A DNA stretch of 64,000 bases from Cyanidioschyzon merolae (lineage: Eukaryota), in the NCBI GenBank assembly GCA_000091205.1, contig AP006494.2; one strand, given 5' to 3'. Under the pieces are notes generated by a model. It had not been told where the DNA came from, did not search any database, and was given only the letters and a program-made list of their open reading frames with translations. Below, in pieces: positions 1-46,230 of this stretch. Position numbers and translations under genes: made by a program. Within the stretch, counting starts at the first letter, position 1. Every line of letters starts with the position of its first letter.

Positions 1-2099
1 CCCCCCATTAACGCGATGATCCCAGCGCGAATGCGTCTCTGATTTTGACGTCTATCAATCCATACTCGTTAGGGATATTCCTTCGGCGGTACGGGCTGGC
101 CTCCTATGCATATGTCATGTTTTTCATCTAGCGTACCAGAGCCATTAGGGAATTACCTCCGGCGCTATGCTTTTTTTGGTCTGGCGGACTTGCCCGTTAG
201 TAAGATCGGCGAAATTGCTGGATCGATACTGGTTTCGGGAAATCGTCCATCCCGCTGACCAGTTTCTTTCCCTTCCTCGCATTTACTTTATCTCGGCTGT
301 GCTGATAGTTTCAGATATTGAACCCTGCGTCGCGTACCTGCCATCTGCATTCGCAGTGGCGTATCCGTCGCTGCTGCGGATGCAGTTTGGAAAGAGAGCA
401 GCTCTGACATACTACGGATCGCGTTGGAAAACGTTTGCTTCATGCAACGTAGGATTAAGTACATTTATTTTCTAGGCAGCCTTCAAGCTGTTCTTGCAGA
501 CCTTTTGCCTGCGATAGCGTAAAGCGCTATACCATTCCTCTACCGCAATCTAGGTGACTCTTTAGCGTAATATACCCGCTCCTGGTTCAGGATCTCTTCT
601 TTTGCCGAGGAGATGCTAAGGTGCGTTTTATCACTCGCTACTGTATTGTCTCTCTTATCAGAGGTTGGTAGAGTCTCGCTGCTTGCCGACCCTCCGCCTA
701 AATGTCACTGCTTGATTATACGCAAAGACTTCTTCCTTTTACTGTCTACAGTAGGTGGCATTAGTACTTGCTATCCCGTTTGTGTATATTATTTTTTTGT
801 ACTTTCTATATCGTGCGCCCTGCTTACGCATTGCGAACTCTGTCCGCTACTTCACTCTACGTTCGTGTTGCCGATCATGAGAAACGCGGTATTGACCTGT
901 TCTGGAGCGACTGCTCTTTCGGGGCCGCCTGCATTTGCGATCGAATTTTATCAAAGTATTGCTTTGGATTCAATGGCGTTTCTAACTTCCAGTATGTGTA
1001 TTGTACTGATGTTTGCGTTCAAGGCAGAAGCGTCCGATATGTTGTTCACTTAAAAAATGTCAGAGTTTTGTAATTTGAGGTTGTGGGTTGTGGATGTCCT
1101 GGGTTGCCTAGTTTAGGAACAAACGAGACATAGTAGCTATTGCTGAGGACTAGGAAAAGAAGAGGAAGCAAAATGGGGAGGCGCTACGACGAAGGCTGCA
1201 ATAGTGACATCTGTACGACTATATGGTTTTGTGATCCTGTTGTCTCCAACTTATCAATGATCCGTACAACTGAATGTTCCGAGATGCTTTCAGAAACCGC
1301 GTGGATTCGCACTCCAGGAATGTTTGTAGCTCTTGTTTAGGAGTGACGCATTTGCAGATCGAGCAGCATCGCGACGTAACGCACATCGCAAAAGTGGTAT
1401 TTCCGGAATAGTTTTTCAAAGAGAATTCTATCAACCACATGATTTCTCCGAAAAGGTAAGCATCAATGAGAAGAGAGCGGGCGGATGCCTACCTCAAAAT
1501 TTACGAGAAATTCCGCGACAACGGTGCTGGACACAGGGGTGACGCAGATATGTACGAATACAGGGCAATGGGTTTCCTCACGAACGCGAGGAACCAAAAA
1601 ATCTTAACCGTCGTCTTTTCCATGAATGGCGCCCCCTTTGCCCTCTACGCGGGCCTTCTTCGCGAAGGGATGCGGGCAATCATCGATGTTATCAGGAACG
1701 ATCGCAAGCATGAACAGGAGACCATATCCGTCGACAAGGTCACATCATGCTGGTTAACAAATGACGCTTCTGTTATCCGCGCCACTAGTCTAAAGCATCG
1801 TTCGGTCTTGGGGCTTGTCAACGCATGAGAAATATTCTCAGATATGAGTAAAGACGAAGAGATATATTACCCTATCCTCATGTCCTACTCCATGCTTTTG
1901 GACCGAGAACTCGAACGCAAGGCCGAAATGGAGCTGAGTATGGATATAATGAATTGCTGGAGAAATGGCACTGAAGACCTTCTCCCGTTGCGGTTTATTT
2001 TTCGTCCGGTTATGCGAGTTCAAGTCACATTTTGTGAATATCGACTCTAGATTTCTTTAGGCCTTCAAGAAAGAGATTTATCCAGTGCTCGATAGAGGC

Positions 2100-3345
2100 A
2101 CCAAAGAGGTCACTGGCGAAGACCGGGACACCTACTGGAAGAATATCTTCGATTGCAAGCGTCCGATACCGGCCAAAAGAAGGTATTCACGGGGGCCATC
2201 GATGACGATGGGGTATACATATTGGTTCACTTTCAGCGGTTGCAGGCACTTCGTCCTATCCCGTCTCCGTTACCGCCCTTGCCGAAGCACGAAAACAAGA
2301 CGAAAGGCCACGGGACGTATCATCTACACGAGAACGACTTCGTCGTCGGCCTTTACTCCTGGAATACTGACGTCATTACCATCGCTGTACCCAAGCGTTC
2401 CTAAGATTTTACTGAATGTTGCTTACGTCAGAAAGGCATGCGTCTTTTTCAGGTTCTCGAGATCGAGGTACTACCGAGAAGCGGGAATCATGAATCCGGG
2501 GAAGAAAATTGAGACCCTAAATGCAGGAGTGAAAGAGTATCTGAAAGTAATTAGCGAGGTGACGAGCCGACGAGCGGACTCTCAGGCCTGTCGAGAATTC
2601 ATGGAGGTTCGTTTTGTCCATTGGGATTCGCTGTAGAAGAAGTATAAAAGGCCCCGGTGGGTAGTCTACCTATGAGTCCTTACTGTGGTAGGCAGCGTTC
2701 ATTCGCGAAGTTTTTCAATGCGTTGAACGCCTCCAGGAGAATGAGAGTCAGTGGCTCATAGTGGCCTATGGAGCAGGGAGCAGGGCTCCGAAAAATGGGG
2801 ACTACGCCAGCTTCGTCGACGAGGACATACAATGTGTGTGCACGGCGTTTTCTTACAATCCCTGTAGATGGGTTCCGAACATTGTGTACACACCATGCGC
2901 TGGGCTGTATACTTCAGAGAGTGGAGATGGAAAAGTGTCATCGCAGCCCTGGGGAATTAGCAAAGTACGGACCGCTGACGGAACTGCTAATGGAAAGAAG
3001 GGCGAAAGTTCCTGGACTACTTGCAATAGCAAGTATAACGAATGAGGGCAAGAAACGGATGGGGTTTGTAAATCGTGCCTTTGATGCCGCATTCAATTTC
3101 AGAAGAAGTGCGGTGCTGGAGAAAATACCTCCAGAGTCGACATGAGAGAACTTTGTTTGACAACCTCTCAAAGTCGAACTATATGAGACAAGATTGGACG
3201 CAGGAGTAGGTGGCCGGTCCAAAAAGACGGGGGGCGTCTGCATAGCAATGGGAGACTTCTTGCTAGGGCGGGCTTCTCGCCAATACTGTACACCGCTGGC
3301 GCCGTTCGAGTGTAAAAGGCGGTGGTGGCCTGGACGCTCGGACTC
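2100..3345 (+). mobile_element. Decayed TnpB/Fanzor-like (IS605 OrfB-type RuvC nuclease) repeat copy 1. Frameshifted RuvC-I-like 'DFVVGLYSWNTDVITIAVP' lies near 2330-2400, degenerate RuvC-III 'FVNRAFDAAFNF' at 3065-3100, and a conserved roughly 200-bp 3' tail runs to about 3345. Frameshifted ORFs from about 1333 to 2100 may be its decayed N-terminal half.
   Basis: Conceptual translations match the other three copies (31273-31656 minus strand, 31700-32460, 45814-46100). Stops and frameshifts interrupt every frame, and RuvC-I D and RuvC-III D are mutated in this copy. Confidence 0.55.
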
Positions 3346-3840: not shown

Positions 3841-5538
3841 ATGGCGCCTGCTGTCAAGCGAAGAGCCGCGGACGCCACCGCCGCTTCGCTACCCGCCTCG
3901 TCGCCGTCAGCTGAGCGTGTGCAGGCGGCAGACTTGGACGTCATGCATCAGGGCCGCACCAAAGAGGACACACCACAGCATGAGCACCCGGGCGCTGACC
4001 CGCAGAAACAACAGGCATCACCACTCGAACGACTAGTGCTGCGCTCGACTGCGCACGTACGCGCGAACCCGGACGCCTGGCTCACGGGTGCGCTCGTGCT
4101 GCTTGGACTGTGGACGCGCCTCTACCGGATCCGCTGGCCACCCGAATGCGTCTTCGATGAGGTTCACTTTGCGTCGTTCGCACACCACTACCTCAATCGC
4201 ACCTACTTCTTTGATATCCACCCGCCTCTGGCGAAGCTCACGCTGGCCGCAGTCGCGAAACTCGCTGGTGACGTCCCGAATCGCGACTGGTACGTCGACA
4301 AGGTCTACCCACCAGACAGCCGGTACTATGCAATGCGCGCGTGCGCTGGCGTCTTCGGGGCGCTCCTGCCTCCGCTAGGCTTCCGCATCGCCCGCGGGAT
4401 GGGTATGTCGCGGATCGCAGCCACTAGTGTGGGCGTGTTTCTGCTCTTCGACATGCTGAACCTGATCGAGGCGCGCCATATCCTCACGGACTCGCAGCTC
4501 ATCTTCTACGCTGCGCTATGCATCGATGCGTTCGTGCGGCTGTGGCGCACGCCTCCAGCGAGCCGCGCTCGACGCTGGGCTGCTGTGCGCGCCGGCCTCG
4601 CGAGCGGTGCAGCGCTCTCAGTGAAGTGGACCACGCTCGTGGTGCCCGGCCTCTTCGGCCTCGAGTCGGTTGCCGGCGCTGCGCTCGCCGCCGAGCCGCT
4701 CGAGTGGAGCACCTGCGCGATCGTCGCCGCAACAGCCCTGCTCTTGTACGTGGCGCTCTGGTACCCGCACTTTCGGATTCTGATCTATAATGGACCAGGC
4801 GGTGACTTTATGAGCGCCGAGTTCCAGCGGACCCTCATTGGTCGCGACGGCTACGACCCGCAGGCCCGAAAGCCGCCTTTCCTCAAGCTCGTCTGGCAGC
4901 TCAACAAGGAGATGCTGCTGGCGAACGCGCGCATCCTCGATGAGCACCAGTGGCAAGCGCGCTGGCACACATGGCCATACGTAGGCCGTGGCCTCCTTTA
5001 CTGGAATCGCTGGCAGGAGGGTACGTTGGATGCTGACGGGCGACCGCTGCGCCCGCATCACGCCATGCAGATCTATCTGATCGGGAATCCGCTGCTGTTC
5101 TGGATGTGCTTGGCAGCGGTGCTTGGTACAGTGGCGGCAATGCCGTTCTTGCTGCGCCTGATTCGCCAGCGGAAAAAGCGTGGAACGAGCACGGACGCAT
5201 GGGAGCGCTACCTGCGGCTGGCAACATTCCTTCTGCTTGGCTATGCGCTCGGCATTCTCCCGTACATGCCGATCCAGCGAAGTACGTTTATCTACCACTA
5301 CCTGCCGTCGCTGTTGTTCGCGGAGCTGCTTTTTGCGCACGCGGTCCTCGATCTGCCGGCGCTACCGTCGGTGCTGCAGCTGCCGCTCGCCGGTATCGTC
5401 TGGATCGTTGTCTTCTGGTGCTTCTGGTACTTCCGCGCCTGGGTCTATGGACACATCGCGCTCACCGCCGACGACCATGAGGCCATGCGCTGGATCAAGT
5501 ACACGTCCAGCGTAGGCGACAACAAGGGATGGCACTGA
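3841..5538 (+). CDS. GT39-family dolichyl-phosphate-mannose protein O-mannosyltransferase-like (PMT-like) multi-pass membrane protein, 565 aa, apparently lacking the MIR domain
   Basis: Loop-1 signature 'VFDEVHFASFAHHYLNRTYFFDIHPPLAKL' matches the PMT/POMT catalytic DE motif region. Multiple hydrophobic segments follow, in one uninterrupted ORF. Confidence 0.75.
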   Translation: MAPAVKRRAADATAASLPASSPSAERVQAADLDVMHQGRTKEDTPQHEHPGADPQKQQASPLERLVLRSTAHVRANPDAWLTGALVLLGLWTRLYRIRWPPECVFDEVHFASFAHHYLNRTYFFDIHPPLAKLTLAAVAKLAGDVPNRDWYVDKVYPPDSRYYAMRACAGVFGALLPPLGFRIARGMGMSRIAATSVGVFLLFDMLNLIEARHILTDSQLIFYAALCIDAFVRLWRTPPASRARRWAAVRAGLASGAALSVKWTTLVVPGLFGLESVAGAALAAEPLEWSTCAIVAATALLLYVALWYPHFRILIYNGPGGDFMSAEFQRTLIGRDGYDPQARKPPFLKLVWQLNKEMLLANARILDEHQWQARWHTWPYVGRGLLYWNRWQEGTLDADGRPLRPHHAMQIYLIGNPLLFWMCLAAVLGTVAAMPFLLRLIRQRKKRGTSTDAWERYLRLATFLLLGYALGILPYMPIQRSTFIYHYLPSLLFAELLFAHAVLDLPALPSVLQLPLAGIVWIVVFWCFWYFRAWVYGHIALTADDHEAMRWIKYTSSVGDNKGWH

Positions 5539-28520: not shown

Positions 28521-29096
28521 ATGAAACGAACTGCGTTCGCACCTGGTTTGCCGCTGAACCGAAGAAGACTTGTGAGGACAGCGCCGCGTGCAACGGGAGC
28601 TGGTACGGCGCGTAAACCTGCACAGCGACCACTCGTGGCAGGCACTACTGCGTCCAACGGCGCGGCACCAGTCAGGGGTATCGCAACGCGCAAGAGACGT
28701 GGAGGTGCGCTGCCCGGTGACCCCGCTGCACCCAAACACAACGTCACGATTCTAAACTACCGCGATGATGAGTCTCTGACGCTCGCTGTTCCCGAGGACC
28801 GCTACATATGGTGGTATTTCCGGGAAAATGGTTATGAGCTGCCGTCATCGTGCCTGAACGGGTGCTGCACCACGTGCGCCGCCAAGATCGTTCGCGGCAG
28901 TCTAGAGCAGCCCGAGGCGCTCGGACTCACACGAGAGTTCCGTGACAAGGGCTATTGTCTACTGTGTGTAAGCTATCCGCGTTCCGCACTCGTGCTGGTC
29001 CTTCAGAGCGAGGACGAGGTCTACGAGCAGCAGTGGGCAACAACTTTCGAGAGCGGCGGCAAACGCTGGGGCGGCCTCATCCCAGAGGAAGACTAG
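28521..29096 (+). CDS. Plant-type [2Fe-2S] ferredoxin with an Arg/Ala/Thr-rich N-terminal presequence of about 80 aa
   Basis: Cys cluster 'SSCLNGCCTTCAAKI' and the distal ligand in 'YCLLCVSYP'. The presequence is basic, hydroxylated and lacks acidic residues. Confidence 0.7.
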   Translation: MKRTAFAPGLPLNRRRLVRTAPRATGAGTARKPAQRPLVAGTTASNGAAPVRGIATRKRRGGALPGDPAAPKHNVTILNYRDDESLTLAVPEDRYIWWYFRENGYELPSSCLNGCCTTCAAKIVRGSLEQPEALGLTREFRDKGYCLLCVSYPRSALVLVLQSEDEVYEQQWATTFESGGKRWGGLIPEED

Positions 29097-29338
29097 GCGC
29101 TGCGAAAATCGCTGGTGAATGCGGCAAGGGTTCCACGGGAGCTCGCTTTGTTCTCTGACGCACCACGTGTGTGAAATAGATATCGAGGAAACACGAGAAG
29201 CCGCATTTGTTTCGGACGTATCACCGAAAATACGCCACGGTCTGCAGAGCGCCAGCGCCGCGTTCCAAGGAACCGGCCCCCTTCTTCTTTACCAAAAGGT
29301 TGCAGGAGCTTCTGTAGCCTACCGCGAACGGCTGCCAT

Positions 29339-30406
29339 TCAGACCGTGCGAAAAAGCAGTACGACTGGACAATGATCTGACAGTCGCCGCACCTCTTCGC
29401 GCTTTACTTGCGTTTGCTGAAACGCTGCGCCGTAGATCTCTATATCAAAGCGAATATAGCTGTCGACGATGTGTGCGGCAGCACTGGCGCTACAACAGAA
29501 GTAGTCTAAGCGCCATCCTCGATTCTGGAAGTAGTTCTGGACATGCCGATACCCGATGTAGGAGTAGGCGCGGACAGATGGATGCAGCCAGCGGAACGTG
29601 TCCAGGAGTGCGCATTCCTGCAGGGTTTGCGAAAAACTCGCCCGCTCCTCATCAGTAAAGCCCGCGCTGCGACGATTGCCCTCCGGGTTCCAGATATCGA
29701 TTTCCTGGTGGGCGCAGTTCAGGTCACCGCACCAGATGATGGGTTTCCCAGTGCCTTGTCCAAGGCGTTTCAGCTGTGCCCGAACTGCTTCGTCCCATAC
29801 GCGAATGCGATAATCAAGGCGCTTGAGGCCCTCGCCGCTATTCGGTACGTACATGCTACACACCACACAGCTTGAAAACTCGACAATGATGACCCGCCCC
29901 TCAGAATCTTCTACGCCGAGCTCGGGATCGAACCCGTATTGGACTCGAACGGGCTCGCCAAGGCAAGAGCCTTTTCGCAGAAAGAGTGCCGTCCCAGAGT
30001 ACCCACGCTTGCTTCGACACGGATGGAAAAGGCAAGTCTCATAGTGCTCTTGGAGCGCGGACTTGATCGCTTCAGGAATAGGTTCTGACACTTTTATCTC
30101 CTGAACAGTGAGCAGGTCCGGGCACTCGTGCACAATGAACGCGTCGAAAAGGTGTTTCGATCTTGAGAGCGCACTTCGCAGTGAAGCAATGTTGTAGGAG
30201 GCGAGCTTTGCGACTTTCGGGTCTTGCGGCGCACCCCAGGGGCGTCCGCTCGAACTGATCGGTACATCTGCAGGACTTTCCTTCCCGGTGTCTCTCAATT
30301 CGCCGCGACCAGCGTTTTGAACAGCGTTTCCTTTTTCAGCTTTTTTTTCATCTTTCGGAGAGCGCTGCACTGTTTTGCGTCGTTTCCTTTCACCCTCGCC
30401 AGCCAT
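29339..30406 (-). CDS. APE1: AP endonuclease 1 / exonuclease III family (APE1-like), 356 aa from Met 30406. The ORF continues to 30667, but that extension is repeat-derived.
   Basis: Lys-rich N-terminus 'MAGEGERKRRK...', 'SYNIASLRS', 'LTVQEIK', 'WCGDLNCAHQEIDIWNP', and C-terminal 'LSDHCPVVLLF' (the ExoIII SDHxP motif). Confidence 0.8.
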   Translation of the reverse strand: MAGEGERKRRKTVQRSPKDEKKAEKGNAVQNAGRGELRDTGKESPADVPISSSGRPWGAPQDPKVAKLASYNIASLRSALSRSKHLFDAFIVHECPDLLTVQEIKVSEPIPEAIKSALQEHYETCLFHPCRSKRGYSGTALFLRKGSCLGEPVRVQYGFDPELGVEDSEGRVIIVEFSSCVVCSMYVPNSGEGLKRLDYRIRVWDEAVRAQLKRLGQGTGKPIIWCGDLNCAHQEIDIWNPEGNRRSAGFTDEERASFSQTLQECALLDTFRWLHPSVRAYSYIGYRHVQNYFQNRGWRLDYFCCSASAAAHIVDSYIRFDIEIYGAAFQQTQVKREEVRRLSDHCPVVLLFRTV

Positions 30407-30454
30407 CGCTAGTGGTACAAGTGGAAACGAAGCTTGCTTCTGTCTGCGCGCGCT

Positions 30455-31660
30455 CACCAGGAGGCGTGCGGTATCCGGGTTGACTGCCGCTCGGGTACTA
30501 GAGGCCATGCCTCGTATGAGTGGCTCGATACCCACCGCCGTTCTAAGTCGAACGACAGCGGTGTACAATAGTGGCGGCAAACGCGCCCTAGACATAGCGT
30601 CTCCAGCCGAGGGGCAGACGCCTCCCAGTTTTTTTTCGACAGGCCACCTACTGCTGCTTCCAATCATGTCTCAAATAGCTCGACTTTGAGAGATTGTCCA
30701 ATAAAGTTCATTCTTGTCAGCTCTGGAGGTCTCGTCTCCAGCGCTGCACATCTCCTAATATTGATCGCGGCATTAAAGTCACGATTCACGAATTCCATGC
30801 GTTTCGTGTCATCATTGGTTGTACTTACCAATGCAAGGGGTCTACGAACTTTCGCCCTCCTCTCCATTTGCTCCTCCGTCAGTGGTCCGTACTTTTTTAT
30901 ATCTTCAGGGCTCCGCTGACACTTTTCCATCTCCACTGTCTGAAGTGTACATCCCAACTCGTGGTGTGTATAGGACGTTCGGAACTCATCTATCGGTATC
31001 GTAACGAAACGCCGTGCACACTCTTTGTACGTTCTTGTCGTTGGAGCTGGTGTACACCCTTTTTGGGTCTTCCATCGCCCTGCTCCGTACGCGACTACGA
31101 GCCTTTGATTTCATTCTCCTTCAGGGCACTCAACCCAATGAAAAAGTTGGCAAACGCCCGCTACCTCCCACCGTATAGATTCATACGCAAACGAGCCCAC
31201 CGGGGCTTGGTATACTCCTCCCATAGCGCCTCCCAGTGAGCAACACGAACTTCTATGAATTTCCGAAAAGCTTTAAAGTCCGCTCCTCGGCTCGTCACCT
31301 CGCTCGAAGCTTCCAGGGGATCTTTCATTCCTGAATTCCACGTACAAATTTTCTACCTCGCATTCATTATACCGGATCCTCGATAGTATCTTGCTCTCGA
31401 GAACCTCAAAAAGACGCATATCTTTCTGACGTAAGTTACCATCAGTCCCATCTTCCGCACACTTTGGTACAGCGATGGTTATGATGTTCGTATTCCCAGG
31501 GTCCACGCCAACGACAAAGTCGTGATCCTGCATCTCCTGCATCGCAAGATCCGCACCCTTCTCATCTACATGCTTCGCCACGTCAACGACAAGGTCGTCA
31601 TCCTCCACTTCCTTCGTCGCAGGATCCGCATCCTTCTCATCTATATTCTTCGCCACGGGC
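30455..31660 (-). mobile_element. TnpB/Fanzor-like RuvC-domain repeat copy 2, minus strand. RuvC-I 'DFVVGVDPGNTNIITIAVP' lies near 31461-31527, RuvC-II-like 'VAHWEALW' near 31200, a C/H-rich Zn-finger-like stretch follows, and RuvC-III 'FVNRDFNAAINIRRC' is near 30750. It is N-terminally truncated, with a conserved 3' tail reaching to about 50 bp from the APE1 ATG.
   Basis: Motif order D..E..(Zn)..D matches TnpB. The open frame is broken at least twice, and it is homologous to copies 1, 3 and 4 in both coding and 3'-flank segments. Confidence 0.6.
31507..31656. repeat. Tandem duplication of a 75-bp unit (2 copies, about 85% identical) at the 5' end of Fanzor-like copy 2, at the junction of the inverted pair
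   Basis: Units 31507-31581 and 31582-31656 align base-for-base with scattered substitutions. Confidence 0.85.
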
Positions 31661-32810
31661 GAAGCCGAGGACGGACCAGGAGGCGAGCCCGACGGCGCTG
31701 GAGGTGCAGAAGAACGAGGTTGTCGTTGGCGTGGACTCTGCGAACACGAACATCGTTACCATCGCAGCACCCAAGCGTGAGGAAGATGGCTCTGACGGCA
31801 ACTTACGTCAGAAAGACATAAGTCTATTGAAGCTCTCATGAGCGAGATATTACCAAGAATCCGGTATAATGAATGCGACGAAGAAAAGTGAGACATCGAA
31901 CTCAAGAGTGAAGGGAATTTGGAAGCGATCAGCCGGGTGACGAGCCGCGGAGCCGATATTGAAGCGTTTCGAGAGGCTATGAGCATTCACGCAGCTCATG
32001 ACGAAAGCCTTTGGAAAGAATGCACAAAGTTCAGGTGGGCTCGTTTGCGTATGAACCTGTACTGTTGGAAGCAGCGAGCATACGCCGGCTTTTTCAATCA
32101 GTTGAGCGCCCTCAAGGAGGACGGGAGCCAAAGGCTCGTAGTAGCATACGGGGCAGGTCGATGGATGACCCACAAAGGGTGTATACCAGCTCCAACGACA
32201 AGAACGTACAAGGAGTGCGCACACCGTTATGTAAAAATACCTTTAGATGAGTTTCGAACATCTTCTACACACCACGAGCTGTGTTGTACACTTCAGAGGG
32301 TCGCGATGGAGAAAAGCCAGCGGCTCGCTGACGGAAATGCAAATGGCAAGGAGGGCGAACCTTCGAGGACTACTCGCTTTGGTTAGTAAAACTAATGATG
32401 GCAAGAAACGAATAGAGTTCGTGAATTGAGATTTTAACGCCGCCATCAGTGTAAGGAGGTGTGCAGTACTGGAAAGAAGACCCTCGGAGTTGGCGAGAGC
32501 CAACTTTGCGGGGCAACCTCCCAAAATGGAGTTATACGAGATGAAGTTGAAACCAGTAGCAGGTGGCCAGTTGCGGAACGCCGGCACAGGCGTCTGCACA
32601 TCGATGGGTAGACAATCGGTCTACGGCAGACGGTGTGCCAAGTGCCACCATTGTACACTGGCTTTCCAGCGTTTCTCTTTTGCAAGGCGTTTGGTGGTGT
32701 TTCCAGAGACGAATTGTTTACCAAAAACGTCTTCTATCGATCTTCGAAACCAACGTGCTGCTTCCTCTGTGCGGCACGGGGCGTACGCTATGCGCTTTTC
32801 TGCTGATTGA
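31661..32810 (+). mobile_element. TnpB/Fanzor-like RuvC-domain repeat copy 3, plus strand, head-to-head with copy 2. It carries RuvC-I 'VVGVDSANTNIVTIAAP', the RuvC-II region 'AAHDESLW...GFFNQLSALKEDGSQRLVVAYGAGRW', Zn-finger-like 'KECAHRY...THHELCC', and RuvC-III 'FVN*DFNAAISV' with an in-frame stop. The 3' tail frame stays open to 32810.
   Basis: 'GFFNQLSALKEDGSQRLVV' aligns with the canonical TnpB segment 'GEFRRQLEYKAEWYGRTLVVV' that precedes the Zn finger. There are multiple frameshifts. Confidence 0.6.
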
Positions 32811-34888
32811 CAGCGGAAGCGACGAGTCCGGTTACTGCCTTGAAGACTTAGACGCTTTAGAGAGACCATCATATCGATGGTTTCAGTTTTCTGACCTCCT
32901 CCTAACCACCACGCTCGGATCTCTGTTGCAACGGCACGCGCAGCAGCTCTCATGGCAGCCAAAGCTGAACCCGGGCATCGAGAGAGTGGAAAGCTGCATC
33001 AAAGGTGGCGCAAAGCCAAGGGAGCCGGTCATCTGAGCAAGCTTGCATCACCTGCAGAGCTGCGAGCACTCGTCCAAGCGAAACTGACACCCGAGGAGCA
33101 AGTGCGTTTTGGGATGCAGTGTGCAGGGCTGGCAGCCAAGGCACTTGAGGTACTCGACAAGTCGCTTACATCTTTAGAGCAAGACATAGAGAACGAGTCG
33201 TGTGACTGGGAAATAAGATCGGACGCTGCTGTGGACCGTGTTGCGAGACGATTCCTTGCCGATCTCGAACAGCTAAAGCAAACTGGCAGCACGCGTCGAC
33301 TCACCCAACTCAGTATTTGGCGTCGCATCAGTCGCTATGTCTTACTGGCGGAAATGCGAGCATGAACTGCAGGCTGAAGGCAGTCCTTTTGTGAGGCAAG
33401 TCGCGAAGATCGCGGACCAGGCATCCAAGACTCCGGGATACCGCCAGGTCGTTGCCTGGGAGCATCTGGAAGAGCTTGCAGACGCGGCGACTGCAGATGG
33501 TGTATTCGGTTCGCAGTCGCGGTCGATGTCACGTATCTTGCGTCGCCCAGAAAGTCGGTTTGGACTCTTGCTCACGAAACTAGAGCTTGGTGAGGAGCTC
33601 TGCACACCCGAGGAGCGGCGTTTGATGCTAGCATTGGATACCTCTGATGCGAGACTTGAACCCGAACGCATGCGCTCGAGGAAGAGGGCACCTGGTGGAG
33701 CGCAGGATGGCGCCTCTGCAAAGCGCGACCACGGGAGGTCTGCATCCGTTTCGTCGTCGTCGTCGTCGTTAGATCCAGAGCACGGGGACGACGTGCACCC
33801 AGCGGCCAAGAACGCGTCGTCCGTGAGGAAGAAAAGACGACATCATCGGCGACGATCATCCAACAAAAACGAAACCGGGGAGAATCCTCAGTGAGCCAGC
33901 ATTTGAGCGAGAGTGCCGCCGAATCATCGCCGTGCCCTGGCCCAGTGGATATCGCATGATGCCTCGTTTACAGCGGTTCACCCATGATCCTGGGTGGTGA
34001 TTATCGCCGCCGGAATACCTCAGGACTAGATCGCGGATCGTTGGAAGCTACGCTCGCGTCCATCGCGTGTACCATGTGCTGCAAAAGTGGTGCTTGTCTG
34101 CAGCTCCACAAAGAGCACATGATCGCGTGCTGTGCTGCGAGCACCACGGCGCCGGCCTCTGTCGGCAAACGCGCTCAAAGGCGTACTCGCGACAAGCATG
34201 AATTCAGCAGGAATATTGGCGCTGGTTGAGGCACTACGACTGACTATCGAGAGACCAGTCTCAGCAACCGCAGCACTCGCCGATCACTGGGGCGCAGCTT
34301 AAACTCCAGCATCGATGCGGCCGCGTCAGAGCCAGACCTGCAGACTAGTGGACAGAGCGCAGCATGCCTCATTCTGGATCTCGCAGAAGTACCCGCCAGA
34401 GACGCTTTTCAGGGTAGCCAGTGGCGGATCGCGTCTATTTCGCTACCGGGAATTCGGACGGATTCCGCGTCCAGTCGACCGGGGACGGTTCACGCTCTCC
34501 ACTCGGACGTCAACGCGTTTCACTTTGGTGATGAAGGTGCTGCATCCATCCACCGACCAGTCTGCATGACGATTCGAAGAACATCGGGCGGAACCTTTGA
34601 TGCATACCTCTGGAGCATGATTCGCAGAGGTGTACTTTTTTGCAGGTCGTCGAGGTAGAGCGTGTGGCGAGAGCCACATATTTGAGCGACCTCGCACCGG
34701 GCGTGATCCAAGACACCATTCGGCTGATGCTCAAGCGTGCCTCGCGTACCCGACATGTCGCTGCTCACCTTCGTGATGCTGGTGTGCTTCTATGGGTAGC
34801 GCACTTGCGCCCGTTTGCGAAGCGTAGCGGACCTTGAGGACAAATGGCACGCTCCAGCAGCCATGCGCTTGCATAGGTCATGCATTCA

Positions 34889-44600: not shown

Positions 44601-45794
44601 CTTTGTATGGATACATGCATGAAGCAGGTATGCTCCGGCAACTTTGCGTGCGGCTCGAGTCGGTACTCTGTACAACGAGTGCATCACATGAATACGGAGT
44701 CCTCGTACATCGACAGGAAAAGTATATGATCGCACGCGTAGGTATAAAAAGTATATCAGTGATCAGCGCAGCTTGTCTTGCAAAAATGCCGATCAGGCTC
44801 ATTCGGCATGTCTTTCATATCAATTCTGTGACACCCCTGGTGCGGTGCATCGCAGGGGACCGAACAGACGATGGAATGTAGCACAGAGATCGTAGGCAAG
44901 TCGTCTGCAGGATACGTATTCCGTAATGAACAGTGCGACGAGGACAAAATTCATCCTCCCGGTCAGTCGTACCACAGTATTCAAGTGGTTGAGGAACTTT
45001 GAAAGAGCGACGCATATACGGACCGCACCAAAAACCGATAGTTTTAAAGATTGCTTGTGGTCAATGGTGGCGAACCACCCGTTGATCACGTTAAGGAAAG
45101 CAAAAGCGACGATCGTAGCCACCACGCACATCTCTGATCCTAACAGCTTGTTCGTATGGTCCTGAATACAATGGGACGCAGCTGCAAAAAATGTTCTAGT
45201 TCACATACGGCCATCTTCCACCGAAATCGCAACGGCAGCGTTCATGGATCGTCGCGATCAGTATGAAGCACAGTAACGTCGGTTGTTTCTTTCATCCGAT
45301 GAGACTTTCTTCGAACGAAACCGTCGGAGTGTGTATGGGCATTCGCGGAACACGGAGACCGTTGTATGTAGAATCGAACTCGAAAAGCAAGATGACATCA
45401 CCATCTATTCTTGATGTGGTGGATTCATTTGGCGGCCTCAGTTTTGCTCCCAGTGAGGGCTCGTGCAAAGGCACCAACCACTTTGTCGAATCATTGAATA
45501 CTTTTCGCTGAGGTCTGGCGACGACCTTCTATTCGACAACGTGGATTTTCTCCAATTTCCTCGAATTCGATTTTTGCCGATGGTATCGGAGGTAGAACTG
45601 CTTTTGATTCCTCCGTACGCTCCGTGGTTGAACGCCATCGAAGGTGCGTTTTGTATCGTGAAACATTATGATAGCTTCACTAGGCGAATCGCGGAAGCGT
45701 TCAGCGCACGGTGACACGGGGGAACGTATCGTCGCTCGTGAGCAAGTGCTTATGCTTGCGGGAGGCTGCTCATCTTAGAGCCTAAGGAAAACCC

Positions 45795-46230
45795 CTCAGA
45801 AATATATTATGGGATGAGCTGGGGTCTACATGTCAGAAGGTTGAAATGGAGAGAAGCCAGCGGGAGCGCTCTAGTGACCGGAAAAGACGTTGAGCTGACA
45901 CAGCACCAAATGGTACTGAGGGCACGAGGCCGCAGCATCCTTGAAATGATTAGTTCAGTCAGAGACAACGCACGCCAGGAGTTCGTGAACCGAGACTTCA
46001 ACGCCGCCATCAATATCAGACGATGTGTGGTGTTGGAGACGGGACTCGAGGAGCTGAGAAGATCCAAATTTGTGGGGCAGCCTCTTAAGTTCGAAATCTA
46101 CAGGGAGAAAATGAACCCGATCGGAGTCGGCCGGTCGAAAACGGCTGGAAGGCGTCTCTGCATCGATTCATTTATGCACGCTATGGTCGCGGGACGTGTT
46201 CTTTCCACTGAACACATAAGCATTTGCGAT
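45795..46230 (+). mobile_element. TnpB/Fanzor-like repeat copy 4. It is a 3' fragment with an intact RuvC-III-type motif 'FVNRDFNAAINIRRCVVLE' and the conserved 3' tail ('IGVGRSKTAGRRLC...'). It is embedded in a longer ORF, 45814-46680, that is otherwise unrelated.
   Basis: Homology to copies 1-3 begins near the Zn-finger-equivalent region ('SWGLHVRRLKWREAS') in a shifted frame. Nothing upstream is homologous. Confidence 0.5.

What the first reader, a model, noticed from the sequence alone, without database searches (positions are those of the whole stretch)
30455..32810. Head-to-head inverted pair of TnpB/Fanzor-like RuvC nuclease relics directly upstream of the APE1 gene
Two oppositely oriented copies of the same ORF remnant share a 5' junction near 31660. 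One is on the minus strand at 30455-31660, the other on the plus strand at 31661-32810. Each encodes, in order: RuvC-I 'VVGVD(P/S)xNTNI(I/V)TIA'; a RuvC-II-like 'H(D/W)E(S/A)LW'; the segment 'GFFNQLSALKEDGSQRLVVAYGAGRW', which aligns with the canonical TnpB stretch preceding the Zn finger; a Cys/His-rich Zn-finger-like stretch; and the hallmark RuvC-III motif 'FVNRDFNAAINI'. This is the diagnostic architecture of IS200/IS605 TnpB and eukaryotic Fanzor (OMEGA) RNA-guided nucleases. Both copies lack the roughly 190-aa N-terminal WED/REC half and carry frameshifts, so they are not functional nucleases. The minus-strand copy's conserved 3' tail ends about 50 bp from the APE1 start codon, and the annotated 442-aa APE1 ORF spuriously reads into it. 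In bacterial TnpB and in Fanzor, the guide RNA (omega RNA) is transcribed from exactly this 3'-end/right-end region. This raises the possibility of a repeat-derived structured RNA or promoter element at APE1.
Basis: partly seen in the sequence, partly recalled or inferred. Interest (0 to 1): 0.8.

Follow-up and report, generated by a model that had tools for sequence, protein, structure and literature searches.

The report
Dead Fanzor transposon copies, already catalogued
The inverted pair consists of two broken, 5'-truncated copies of CMe-1A, a Fanzor1-carrying transposon of the red alga Cyanidioschyzon merolae that was published in 2013.

Summary
Two roughly 1.0-1.1 kb arms, window 30536-31681 (minus) and 31678-32689 (plus), lie head to head with no spacer and are 72% identical. 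The window comes from Cyanidioschyzon merolae 10D, shown by exact protein matches to BAM80644, BAM80655 and BAM80656.

Both arms align to the published CMe-1A consensus (Bao & Jurka 2013; about 150 copies per genome). Arm A is 87% identical over consensus 2093-3169 and arm B 77% over 2140-3169. CMe-1A is one of the founding Fanzor1 families.

I confirmed Fanzor1 membership independently. A family profile hits only Fanzor1 entries in the PDB (E = 1e-19 and 1e-13). An AlphaFold model (pLDDT 86) has SpuFz, PpFz and GtFz as its best fold matches. D431, E603 and D672 are invariant across the family.

They have different 3'-end variants, so they are probably independent insertions.

The canonical RuvC-II position is Gly570, and the rearranged glutamate is probably the one in DEFRTS.

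The annotated APE gene is 418 aa, not 442 aa. It starts 59 nt inside arm A, but orthologues support a start 130 nt downstream of the element. The omega-RNA or promoter idea remains untested.

Novelty: already known. Interest: low.

The parts
30536..31681 (-). Arm A: 5'-truncated, pseudogenised CMe-1A copy covering consensus nt 2093-3169 (Fanzor1 residues ~396-734 plus the 59-nt 3' non-coding tail).
   Evidence: blastn to the published consensus gives 87% identity; the 3' boundary comes. Lesions: frameshifts at 31412 (+1), 31110 (-1) and 30637 (+1); premature stops at 31355, 31163 and 30666. Catalytic codons are kept: D431 at 31503-31501, E603 at 30987-30985, D672 at 30780-30778.
31678..32689 (+). 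Arm B: an older, more decayed 5'-truncated CMe-1A copy covering consensus nt 2140-3169.
   Evidence: blastn gives 77% identity. Lesions: stop at 31839; -1 at 31915; a 26-nt deletion at 32324-32326; the RuvC-III Arg codon changed CGA->TGA at 32427; +2 and +1 near 32585 and 32609. The D, E and D codons are still readable at 31734-31736, 32249-32251 and 32430-32432.
31678..31681 (.). Head-to-head junction where the truncated 5' ends of A and B abut without a spacer.
   Evidence: The consensus alignments of A and B end here on opposite strands.
31503..31652 (-). Two 75-nt tandem units in arm A. They encode the 25-aa acidic repeat that precedes RuvC-I. The unit number varies from 1 to about 7 among family members.
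   Evidence: the repeat finder family D1, 84% identity; variable repeat number in homologues and in metagenome copies.
30536..30557 (-). 3'-terminal hairpin of arm A (GTCGTTC-GACTTA-GAACGGC), ending on the last base of the element. It is the only one of the three window copies that keeps it.
   Evidence: RNAfold MFE of -10.3 kcal/mol. A terminal stem of >=7 bp occurs in 27 of 54 copies, against 1.0% of internal control windows.
29339..30406 (-). APE (Exo_endo_phos) coding sequence, taking the orthologue-supported start at Met88 of the long ORF. The GenBank model BAM80656.1 starts at 30595, and the longest ORF starts at 30667. Both of those starts lie inside arm A.
   Evidence: Pfam PF03372, E = 3.8e-17; exact match of the 418-aa form to BAM80656.1. 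The Cyanidiococcus (354 aa) and Cyanidium (342 aa) orthologues begin at the position of Met88.
214..3301 (+). Copy C: a near full-length but heavily decayed CMe-1A copy covering consensus 37-3145, including the N-terminal half of the Fanzor1 ORF.
   Evidence: blastn 67-74% identity; tblastn covers residues 19-723; frames shown.
45757..46164 (+). Fragment D: a divergent C-terminal Fanzor1 fragment (residues ~592-728), still reading FVNRDFNAAINI.
   Evidence: blastn 70% identity; tblastn 43% identity, E = 2e-24; ORF listed.

Best explanation
Window 30536-32689 holds two degenerate, 5'-truncated copies of CMe-1A. CMe-1A is the ~3.2-kb non-autonomous transposable element of Cyanidioschyzon merolae whose single ORF encodes the 734-aa Fanzor1 protein CMe-1, a eukaryotic TnpB-type, omega-RNA-guided RuvC endonuclease. 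Each copy keeps only the C-terminal ~45% of the ORF (RuvC-I to RuvC-III) plus the 59-nt 3' non-coding end. Each is inactivated by frameshifts and stop codons.

The two copies lie head to head in the intergenic space between the APE gene (minus strand) and the next plus-strand gene, so each 3' end faces a host gene. They most likely arose as two separate insertions from two source variants: arm A has the type-1 3' end and arm B the type-2 3' end. A single inverted duplication is less likely.

They encode no nuclease. Their only demonstrable effect is on annotation: an ATG created by mutation inside arm A's tail opens a frame into APE, so gene models begin inside the repeat.

Shown: family identity, Fanzor1 homology and fold, the lesions, and the boundaries. 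Inferred: independent insertion, and the absence of any present function.
For: Organism: exact matches to C. merolae 10D proteins BAM80644, BAM80655 and BAM80656.

Family: the published CMe-1A consensus and CMe-1 protein (PMC3627910, supplements read) align to arm A at 87% (consensus 2093-3169), arm B at 77% (2140-3169), copy C at 74% and fragment D at 70%. The paper reports ~150 copies at ~80% identity to the consensus.

Fanzor1 membership:
- The profile of CMe-1 copies matches the profile of 31 distant relatives with hhalign probability 100%, E = 3e-95.
- Profile A8 against PDB sequences hits only Parasitella Fz1 (1e-19), Spizellomyces Fz1 (1e-13) and Guillardia Fz1 (0.009).
- The AF2 model of family member P0014 has pLDDT 86 and pTM 0.81.
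- Foldseek top 7 hits are all Fanzor1 (E = 3.7e-10 to 1e-6), followed by Cas12o, ISDra2 TnpB and Cas12f.
- D155, E327 and R395-D396 of P0014 are invariant in 80 relatives.

Lesions are listed.

Independent origin: A-B identity (72%) is no higher than A-C (73%). Shared derived bases are no more frequent for A-B (26) than for A-C (39) or B-C (30). A and B differ in the diagnostic 3'-terminal block, including a 4-nt indel. A is 14% and B 22% diverged from the consensus.
Against: Pfam and NCBIfam give no TnpB hit for the window fragments or for the closest intact homologues. Only 14 of 31 distant relatives touch PF07282, and weakly.

The CCCC zinc-finger pattern typical of TnpB and SpuFz1 is not kept in CMe-1.

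Two independently truncated copies abutting with zero spacer, at breakpoints only ~47 consensus nt apart and both beside the 75-nt tandem repeat, is an unlikely coincidence. It could instead point to one rearrangement event followed by gene conversion of one arm.

Lack of function is inferred, not tested. Arm A keeps an intact terminal hairpin and lies where the APE promoter or 5' UTR must be.
Confidence: 0.93

Rival explanations
1. The pair arose in one event: an inverted (palindromic) duplication of a single 5'-truncated CMe-1A copy. The break would have been at or near the 75-nt tandem repeat, and the two arms would have diverged afterwards.
For: The truncated 5' ends abut with no spacer. 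The breakpoints are only ~47 consensus nt apart (2093 vs 2140), both next to the tandem-repeat array. Head-to-head pairs of this family occur elsewhere, in L002/L003 and L033.
Against: The arms are no more alike than unrelated copies, and there is no excess of shared derived changes. They carry different 3'-terminal variants, including a 4-nt indel. Divergence from the consensus is unequal: 138 vs 227 differences over ~1030 sites. The other head-to-head pairs join at the elements' true 5' termini, not at internal breakpoints.
Confidence: 0.25
2. Arm A has been co-opted by the host. Its 3' end would supply the promoter or 5' UTR of APE. Alternatively, through the mutation-created ATG at 30595, it would supply the first 20 codons of an Arg/Ala/Ser/Leu-rich N-terminal extension acting as an organelle-targeting peptide. 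Plant orthologues of this APE are annotated as chloroplastic.
For: GenBank BAM80656.1 starts at 30595, inside the element. The ORF stays open through the tail in environmental Cyanidioschyzon contigs. Almost the whole 2.5-kb space upstream of APE is CMe-1A sequence, apart from 130 nt. Many plant homologues are named 'chloroplastic'.
Against: The Cyanidiococcus and Cyanidium orthologues are 354 and 342 aa, begin at the position of Met88, and have no counterpart of the extension. The environmental variants are 97-100% identical, so an open frame shows no constraint. The same frame is closed by a stop in copy C. There are no transcript data.
Confidence: 0.15
3. Arm A still produces a working omega-RNA: a scaffold from the conserved 3' end plus a guide read from the flank at 30535 downwards. 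An intact CMe-1 Fanzor1 encoded elsewhere in the genome would use it in trans, so the locus would take part in RNA-guided cleavage or homing.
For: [quoted passage not shown] The CMe-1A 3' end is sharply bounded and conserved. It ends in a hairpin that arm A retains. Bao & Jurka state that some genomic copies still have intact ORFs.
Against: No RNA data are available. There is no Rfam match. The tail of arm A does not fold better than shuffles (z = -0.96). The long-range helix seen in the consensus shows no covariation. A guide copied from its own flank would target only an empty allele, and none is known in this haploid genome.
Confidence: 0.05

Closest known systems
CMe-1A / CMe-1 (Fanzor1 family of Cyanidioschyzon merolae; Bao & Jurka 2013, Mobile DNA 4:12, PMC3627910)
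   Same: Same organism and same sequence family. Arms A and B align colinearly to consensus nt 2093/2140-3169 at 87% and 77%. The conceptual translation matches the published 734-aa CMe-1 protein motif for motif. The divergence level matches the ~80% reported for the ~150 genomic copies.
   Different: These two copies are 5'-truncated and pseudogenised and sit head to head. The published description does not mention this locus, the two 3'-end variants, the terminal hairpin or the overlap with the APE gene model.
Spizellomyces punctatus Fanzor1 (SpuFz1, PDB 8GKH) and Parasitella parasitica Fanzor1 (PDB 9CF0)
   Same: Best sequence-profile and fold matches. They share the WED/REC/RuvC layout, the RuvC-I DPG motif, the DE(F/Y)xTS glutamate, the RuvC-III NRD motif, and a Gly at the canonical RuvC-II glutamate position.
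   Different: Only 12-18% identity. CMe-1 lacks the CCCC zinc finger, has a variable acidic 25-aa tandem repeat before RuvC-I, and its element has no terminal inverted repeats. RNA-guided cleavage is demonstrated for SpuFz1 and not for CMe-1.
Bacterial TnpB of IS200/IS605 (ISDra2 TnpB, PDB 8H1J)
   Same: Same superfamily fold (Foldseek E = 5.5e-3, probability 0.99). Same logic of a nuclease gene whose 3' end, together with the transposon right end, encodes the guide RNA scaffold.
   Different: TnpB is about 400 aa with a canonical RuvC-II glutamate and a zinc ribbon. Its element encodes or depends on a Y1 TnpA. No Pfam OrfB_IS605 or OrfB_Zn_ribbon hit was found for the window sequences.
Helitron2-borne Fanzor1 elements CRe-1/2/3 of Chlamydomonas (same 2013 paper)
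   Same: Non-autonomous, multi-copy Fanzor1 carriers without classical TIRs or TSDs. Both have a hairpin at the very 3' end. CMe-1A also shows a short hairpin at the start of its conserved core, and a T-rich 3' flank.
   Different: I could not recognise asymmetric terminal inverted repeats, and no RepHel partner is known. The authors of the Helitron2 definition left CMe-1A unclassified.

Membership tests
CMe-1A transposable element family (C. merolae) | Colinear nucleotide similarity to the 3169-bp consensus, at the family's typical level of ~80%. | tested here: met
   Arm A is 87% identical over consensus 2093-3145/3169, arm B 77% over 2140-3169, copy C 74% and fragment D 70%.
CMe-1A transposable element family (C. 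merolae) | Host genome is Cyanidioschyzon merolae. | tested here: met
   Window ORFs are identical to BAM80644.1, BAM80655.1 and BAM80656.1 of strain 10D.
CMe-1A transposable element family (C. merolae) | Shares the family's 3' terminus (...GAA(A/C)GGCG). | tested here: met
   Conservation across 54 copies stops at consensus 3169. Arms A and B both reach it, at 30536 and 32689.
Fanzor1 (eukaryotic TnpB homologues) | Significant sequence homology to established Fanzor1 proteins. | tested here: met
   The family profile hits only Fanzor1 chains in the PDB: 9cf0 at 1e-19, 8gkh at 1e-13 and 9cer at 0.009. The link between the CMe-1 copies and that profile has probability 100%, E = 3e-95.
Fanzor1 (eukaryotic TnpB homologues) | TnpB/Cas12-type fold (WED, REC and split RuvC). 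| tested here: met
   AF2 model with pLDDT 86.3. Foldseek ranks 1-7 are SpuFz, PpFz and GtFz at probability 1.00, followed by Cas12o, TnpB and Cas12f. The model is of an intact metagenomic family member (P0014), not of the window relics.
Fanzor1 (eukaryotic TnpB homologues) | RuvC-I Asp and RuvC-III Arg-Asp; canonical RuvC-II Glu replaced by Gly/Pro, with a relocated conserved Glu. | tested here: met
   CMe-1 has D431, G570 (LVVAYGAGRW), E603 (DEFRTS) and R671-D672. D, E and RD are invariant in 80 relatives. The codons for D, E and D are present in both arms, but the RuvC-III Arg codon of arm B is a stop. The rearrangement rule comes from PMC10530073. That E603 is the relocated catalytic residue is an inference from alignment; its geometry was not measured.
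Fanzor1 (eukaryotic TnpB homologues) | C4 zinc finger between the [TS][TS] motif and RuvC-III (Bao & Jurka motif; CCCC in SpuFz1). | tested here: not met
   The CMe-1 interval reads TSYTHHELGCTLQRVEMEKCQ...GLLALVSTT, with two His and two Cys and no CxxC pairs. In the profile alignment the FCPKC of PpFz1 faces 'ihhkd'. The family was nonetheless classified as Fanzor1 by its describers. I treat the zinc finger as a typical feature that is dispensable for membership.
Fanzor1 (eukaryotic TnpB homologues) | Omega-RNA (fRNA) encoded at the 3' end / right end, with the guide read from the flank. | not testable with these tools
   Only indirect evidence: a conserved 59-nt non-coding tail with a terminal hairpin, no Rfam family, and no covariation for the long-range helix. 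RNA sequencing is needed.
Fanzor1 (eukaryotic TnpB homologues) | Intact ORF capable of encoding the nuclease (applies to these two copies). | tested here: not met
   About 400 N-terminal residues are missing. Arm A has 3 frameshifts and 3 stops. Arm B has 4-5 frameshifting indels and 2 stops. These are relics of a Fanzor1 gene, not Fanzor1 genes.
Bacterial TnpB (Pfam OrfB_IS605 / OrfB_Zn_ribbon = Cas12f1-like_TNB) | Match to the Pfam models above the gathering score. | tested here: not met
   No hit for the window fragments or for 7 intact close homologues. Among distant relatives, 14 of 31 give weak PF07282 hits, best E = 3.1e-5.
Helitron2 (considered as the carrier class for CMe-1A) | 3'-terminal hairpin, 5'-terminal hairpin, and asymmetric terminal inverted repeats (5' ATIR pairing with a 3' ATIR just upstream of the 3' hairpin). 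| tested here: inconclusive
   A 3' hairpin is present in half of the copies, against ~1% of control windows, with a compensatory C-G/A-T difference between the two variants. A short hairpin (GCGCT-CAGTG-AGCGC, or GCGCG-GTCGATA-CGCGC) sits at the start of the conserved core. No convincing ATIR was seen by inspection, and no RepHel partner was searched for.

The most novel reading that the evidence does not exclude
The relic next to APE is not inert. Arm A's conserved 3' end, with its intact terminal hairpin and the sequence where a Fanzor omega-RNA scaffold would lie, now acts as APE's promoter or 5' leader, or is still transcribed as an omega-RNA-like small RNA whose guide portion reads into the APE upstream region. 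That would link a decayed Fanzor1 element to the regulation of a DNA-repair gene.
Probability: 0.07. Interest if true: 0.5.

Novelty: already known. Interest (0 to 1): 0.15.

Why it matters
It matters little. The locus adds two more decayed copies to a repeat family catalogued in this genome in 2013, a family that helped define Fanzor1.

There are three practical by-products:
(1) The GenBank APE model BAM80656.1, and the longer ORF calls in metagenomes, probably begin spuriously inside a transposon tail and should be checked against transcript data.
(2) CMe-1A has a sharply defined 3' end with a terminal hairpin in two compensating variants, and a modular 5' end. This could help classify this still-unclassified carrier and locate its omega-RNA.
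(3) Hot-spring metagenomes hold hundreds of CMe-1 copies. The wider family has more than 1,600 50%-identity clusters, a resource for anyone seeking thermotolerant Fanzor1 nucleases.

Tried and rejected
- Pfam and NCBIfam scans of the window fragments and of intact close homologues gave nothing for TnpB.
- A shallow PDB profile search with 15 near-identical copies gave nothing. It worked only after adding distant relatives.
- The first AlphaFold run, with a 7-sequence alignment, failed at pLDDT 32 and was discarded.
- An Rfam scan of 29000-34000 at E <= 1 gave no match.
- RNAalifold on 54 tails returned only a 3-bp helix.
- The 14-bp long-range helix seen in the consensus fold shows no covariation and pairs equally well when slid by +3, so I rejected it as evidence for structure. 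The GGGCG...CGCC hairpin has only weak support.
- I looked for diagnostic sites outside the last 25 nt separating the two 3'-end variants. There were none at >=70% frequency and only weak associations otherwise.
- I tried to see the pair in environmental contigs. Assemblies break inside arm A, and the APE variants are too similar (97-100%) to test coding constraint on the N-terminal extension.
- No terminal inverted repeats were found around the mariner-like relic next to fragment D.
- None of the relic ORFs is present as an annotated protein in the collection.
Full report
**Observation.** The region contains a long imperfect inverted repeat. The repeat finder lists six colinear inverted segments of 52-251 nt at 73-82% complementarity, running from 30639-31634 against 31678-32571. 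A self-blastn gives a single 910-nt inverted alignment at 73.5% identity, E = 1e-153. The same search finds a third, longer copy at about 2331-3325 and a short fourth match near 45979-46084, so the 'four copies' in the finding exist. Three-frame translations show the quoted motifs in both arms and in the stated order: VVGVD(P/S)xNTNI, H(W/D)E(A/S)LW, GFFNQLSALKEDGSQRLVVAYGAGRW, DEFRTS...C...C, and FVN(R/*)DFNAAI. The reading frame shifts between frames and contains in-frame stops.

**Organism and published identity.** Neighbouring ORFs are identical to Cyanidioschyzon merolae 10D proteins: the mannosyltransferase BAM80644.1 and the ferredoxin BAM80655.1. The APE gene in its 418-aa form is identical to BAM80656.1, on an 859,119-bp record.

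A full-text search for Fanzor plus Cyanidioschyzon returned Bao & Jurka 2013 (PMC3627910). That paper defined Fanzor1 and Fanzor2 and lists one Fanzor1 family for this alga, CMe-1A. It reports about 150 copies at ~80% identity to a ~3-kb consensus, no TIRs, undetermined TSDs and unknown class, with some copies still intact. I read the 3169-bp consensus and the 734-aa CMe-1 protein from the supplements and aligned them to the window:
- arm A = 31681->30553, consensus 2093-3145, 87% identity;
- arm B = 31678->32689, consensus 2140-3169, 77%;
- copy C = 214-3301, consensus 37-3145, 67-74%;
- fragment D = 45814-46157, consensus 2737-3082, 70%.

The finding is therefore a set of copies of an already described element.

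**Independent test of the Fanzor assignment.** Pfam and NCBIfam do not recognise the fragments or the nearest intact homologues. A homologue search found 307 proteins at 60-93% identity, listed with JGI, ENA and MetaClust as sources and up to 516 aa long. The JGI contigs I examined carry Cyanidioschyzon genes; L082, for example, is 99.4% identical to the window. An exhaustive HMMER search with these found 1,602 cluster representatives, many of 600-700 aa.

- The CMe-1 profile and a profile of 31 such relatives match with probability 100%, E = 3e-95.
- A combined 80-sequence profile hits only three proteins with meaningful scores in the whole PDB: Parasitella Fanzor1 (1e-19), Spizellomyces Fanzor1 (1e-13) and Guillardia Fanzor1 (0.009).
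- With that alignment, AlphaFold gives a confident model of family member P0014 (pLDDT 86, pTM 0.81).
- Its seven best Foldseek matches are all Fanzor1 structures (E = 3.7e-10 to 1e-6), followed by Cas12o, ISDra2 TnpB and Cas12f.

**Catalytic residues.** In CMe-1 numbering the RuvC-I Asp is D431 (GADPG) and the RuvC-III Asp is D672 (NRDFNAA). The canonical RuvC-II position is G570 in LVVAYGAGRW, and DEFRTS provides E603. D, E and RD are invariant in 80 relatives. Jiang et al. 2023 showed that Fanzors replace the canonical RuvC-II Glu by Gly or Pro and use another conserved Glu some 45 residues away (PMC10530073). CMe-1 fits this pattern, with a spacing of 33 residues.

The CCCC zinc finger of SpuFz1 and TnpB is not kept: the interval has two His and two Cys and no CxxC pair.

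**Anatomy of the two arms.** Both start in or beside the 75-nt tandem repeat. This repeat encodes a 25-aa acidic unit just before RuvC-I, and its copy number varies from 1 to about 7 in the family. The arms therefore lack about 400 N-terminal residues, not 190.
- Arm A has frameshifts at 31412, 31110 and 30637 and stops at 31355, 31163 and 30666.
- Arm B has a stop at 31839, a 1-nt deletion at 31915, a 26-nt deletion at 32324-32326, the RuvC-III Arg codon mutated to TGA at 32427, and further indels near 32585 and 32609.

Neither arm can encode a nuclease.

**Origin of the head-to-head arrangement.** The truncated 5' ends abut at 31678-31681 with no spacer, which at first suggests a single palindromic duplication. 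Four observations argue against that:
- A and B are 72% identical, no closer than A and C (73%).
- Bases that differ from the consensus in both copies and agree with each other number 26 for A/B, 39 for A/C and 30 for B/C.
- A differs from the consensus at 138 sites and B at 227, out of ~1030.
- The family has two variants of the last ~25 nt, including a 4-nt indel. A carries type 1 and B type 2.

I therefore favour two insertions of different age (about 0.65) over one inverted duplication (about 0.25). Head-to-head pairs of this family also occur in metagenomic loci (L002/L003, L033), but those are joined at true 5' termini.

**Relation to APE.** Alignment of 51 de-duplicated metagenomic copies plus the three window copies shows conservation stopping sharply at consensus 3169. 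Arm A therefore ends at 30536, not 30455, and arm B ends at 32689.

The GenBank APE start (30595) lies 59 nt inside the element. The ATG was created by a TTTTG->CTATG change relative to the consensus and overlaps the Fanzor stop codon. The 442-aa ORF starts 131 nt inside the element.

The orthologues in Cyanidiococcus yangmingshanensis (354 aa, 74% identity) and Cyanidium caldarium (342 aa) begin where C. merolae has Met88, at window 30406, and have no equivalent of the extension. The most likely true CDS is therefore 29339-30406, with the element ending 130 nt upstream. Environmental variants are 97-100% identical and cannot test constraint.

**The 3' tail as RNA.**
[quoted passage not shown] The CMe-1A tail is therefore the right place to look.
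- Rfam finds nothing.
- The consensus tail folds somewhat better than shuffles (z = -2.5), but arm A's tail does not (z = -0.96).
- A 14-bp long-range helix in the consensus has no covariation support.
- One feature does stand out: a hairpin that ends on the last base of the element. A stem of >=7 bp is present in 27 of 54 copies against 1.0% of internal control windows.
- The hairpin exists in two variants, a 10-bp CG(T/C)CGTTCGA/TCGAACGGCG and an 8-bp CGTTTTTC/GAAAG(A/G)CG. They differ by a compensatory C-G versus A-T pair at the fifth position from the end.
- Arm A keeps the hairpin; B and C have lost it.

Whether it acts as RNA or as a DNA signal for transposition is open.

**Verdict.** The hypothesis of an APE-linked RNA or promoter is neither supported nor excluded. 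Interest is low.

Noticed in passing
window 30536-30557 (minus); loci L001-L081, 3' ends of CMe-1A copies: CMe-1A ends in a hairpin whose 3' arm finishes on the last base of the element. There are two sequence variants, a 10-bp and an 8-bp stem, which differ by a compensatory C-G/A-T pair. The first two flanking bases are T in about 70-80% of copies. This is not mentioned in the 2013 description, which left the element unclassified.
   Followed up: partly
loci L002-L081, consensus positions ~1-700: The 5' part of CMe-1A is modular. Many copies share only the core from about consensus 650, which opens with a short hairpin (GCGCT-CAGTG-AGCGC). Upstream of it lies one of three things: the TE-N2_CMe-like 635 bp in forward orientation, the same in reverse orientation, or an unrelated conserved leader. 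Head-to-head pairs joined at 5' termini occur in L002/L003 and L033.
   Followed up: partly
window 44926-45714 (+), next to fragment D at 45757-46164: Decayed ORFs here resemble a Tc1/mariner-type DDE transposase. Pfam DDE_3 gives E = 3.7e-5 at 24 bits, below the gathering score. They lie directly upstream of, and on the same strand as, the most divergent Fanzor1 fragment. This recalls mariner-borne Fanzor1 elements, but no TIRs were found.
   Followed up: partly
window 31503-31652 and homologues P0002, P0005, P0009, P0012: A 25-aa acidic tandem repeat (consensus about KHEDEKEADPATQEVQDNDFVVD.) sits immediately before RuvC-I. It has between 1 and about 7 units in different family members. Both truncation points of the inverted pair lie at this array.
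   Followed up: no
window 29339-30667 (minus): The GenBank APE model BAM80656.1 (418 aa) and the 442-aa ORF calls in metagenomes start inside the transposon tail. The Cyanidiococcus and Cyanidium orthologues (354 and 342 aa) support a start at 30406. This is probably an annotation error.
   Followed up: yes
window 3841-5538 and 28521-29096: The mannosyltransferase and ferredoxin proteins each carry two C. merolae accessions for the identical sequence: BAM80644/BAM81152, with a third close copy BAM82295, and BAM80655/BAM82498. Parts of this window are therefore duplicated on other chromosomes.
   Followed up: no
proteins P0163-P0511 (metagenomes, Logan assemblies): The CMe-1-like Fanzor1 clade is large, with 1,602 50%-identity clusters at E <= 1e-3. 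Most members are 580-700 aa, lie on 2-6 kb contigs, and carry Pfam DUF8286 (PF26935) in precomputed annotation. As a clade it appears to lack the first CxxC of the zinc finger. Its taxonomic range was not examined.
   Followed up: no
protein P0156 (428 aa, JGI contig): One environmental APE call has an unrelated N-terminus (MEVGAPEISVNLGTI) that joins the common sequence inside the CMe-1A tail. This suggests either a chimeric assembly at the repeat or a different upstream arrangement in that population.
   Followed up: no
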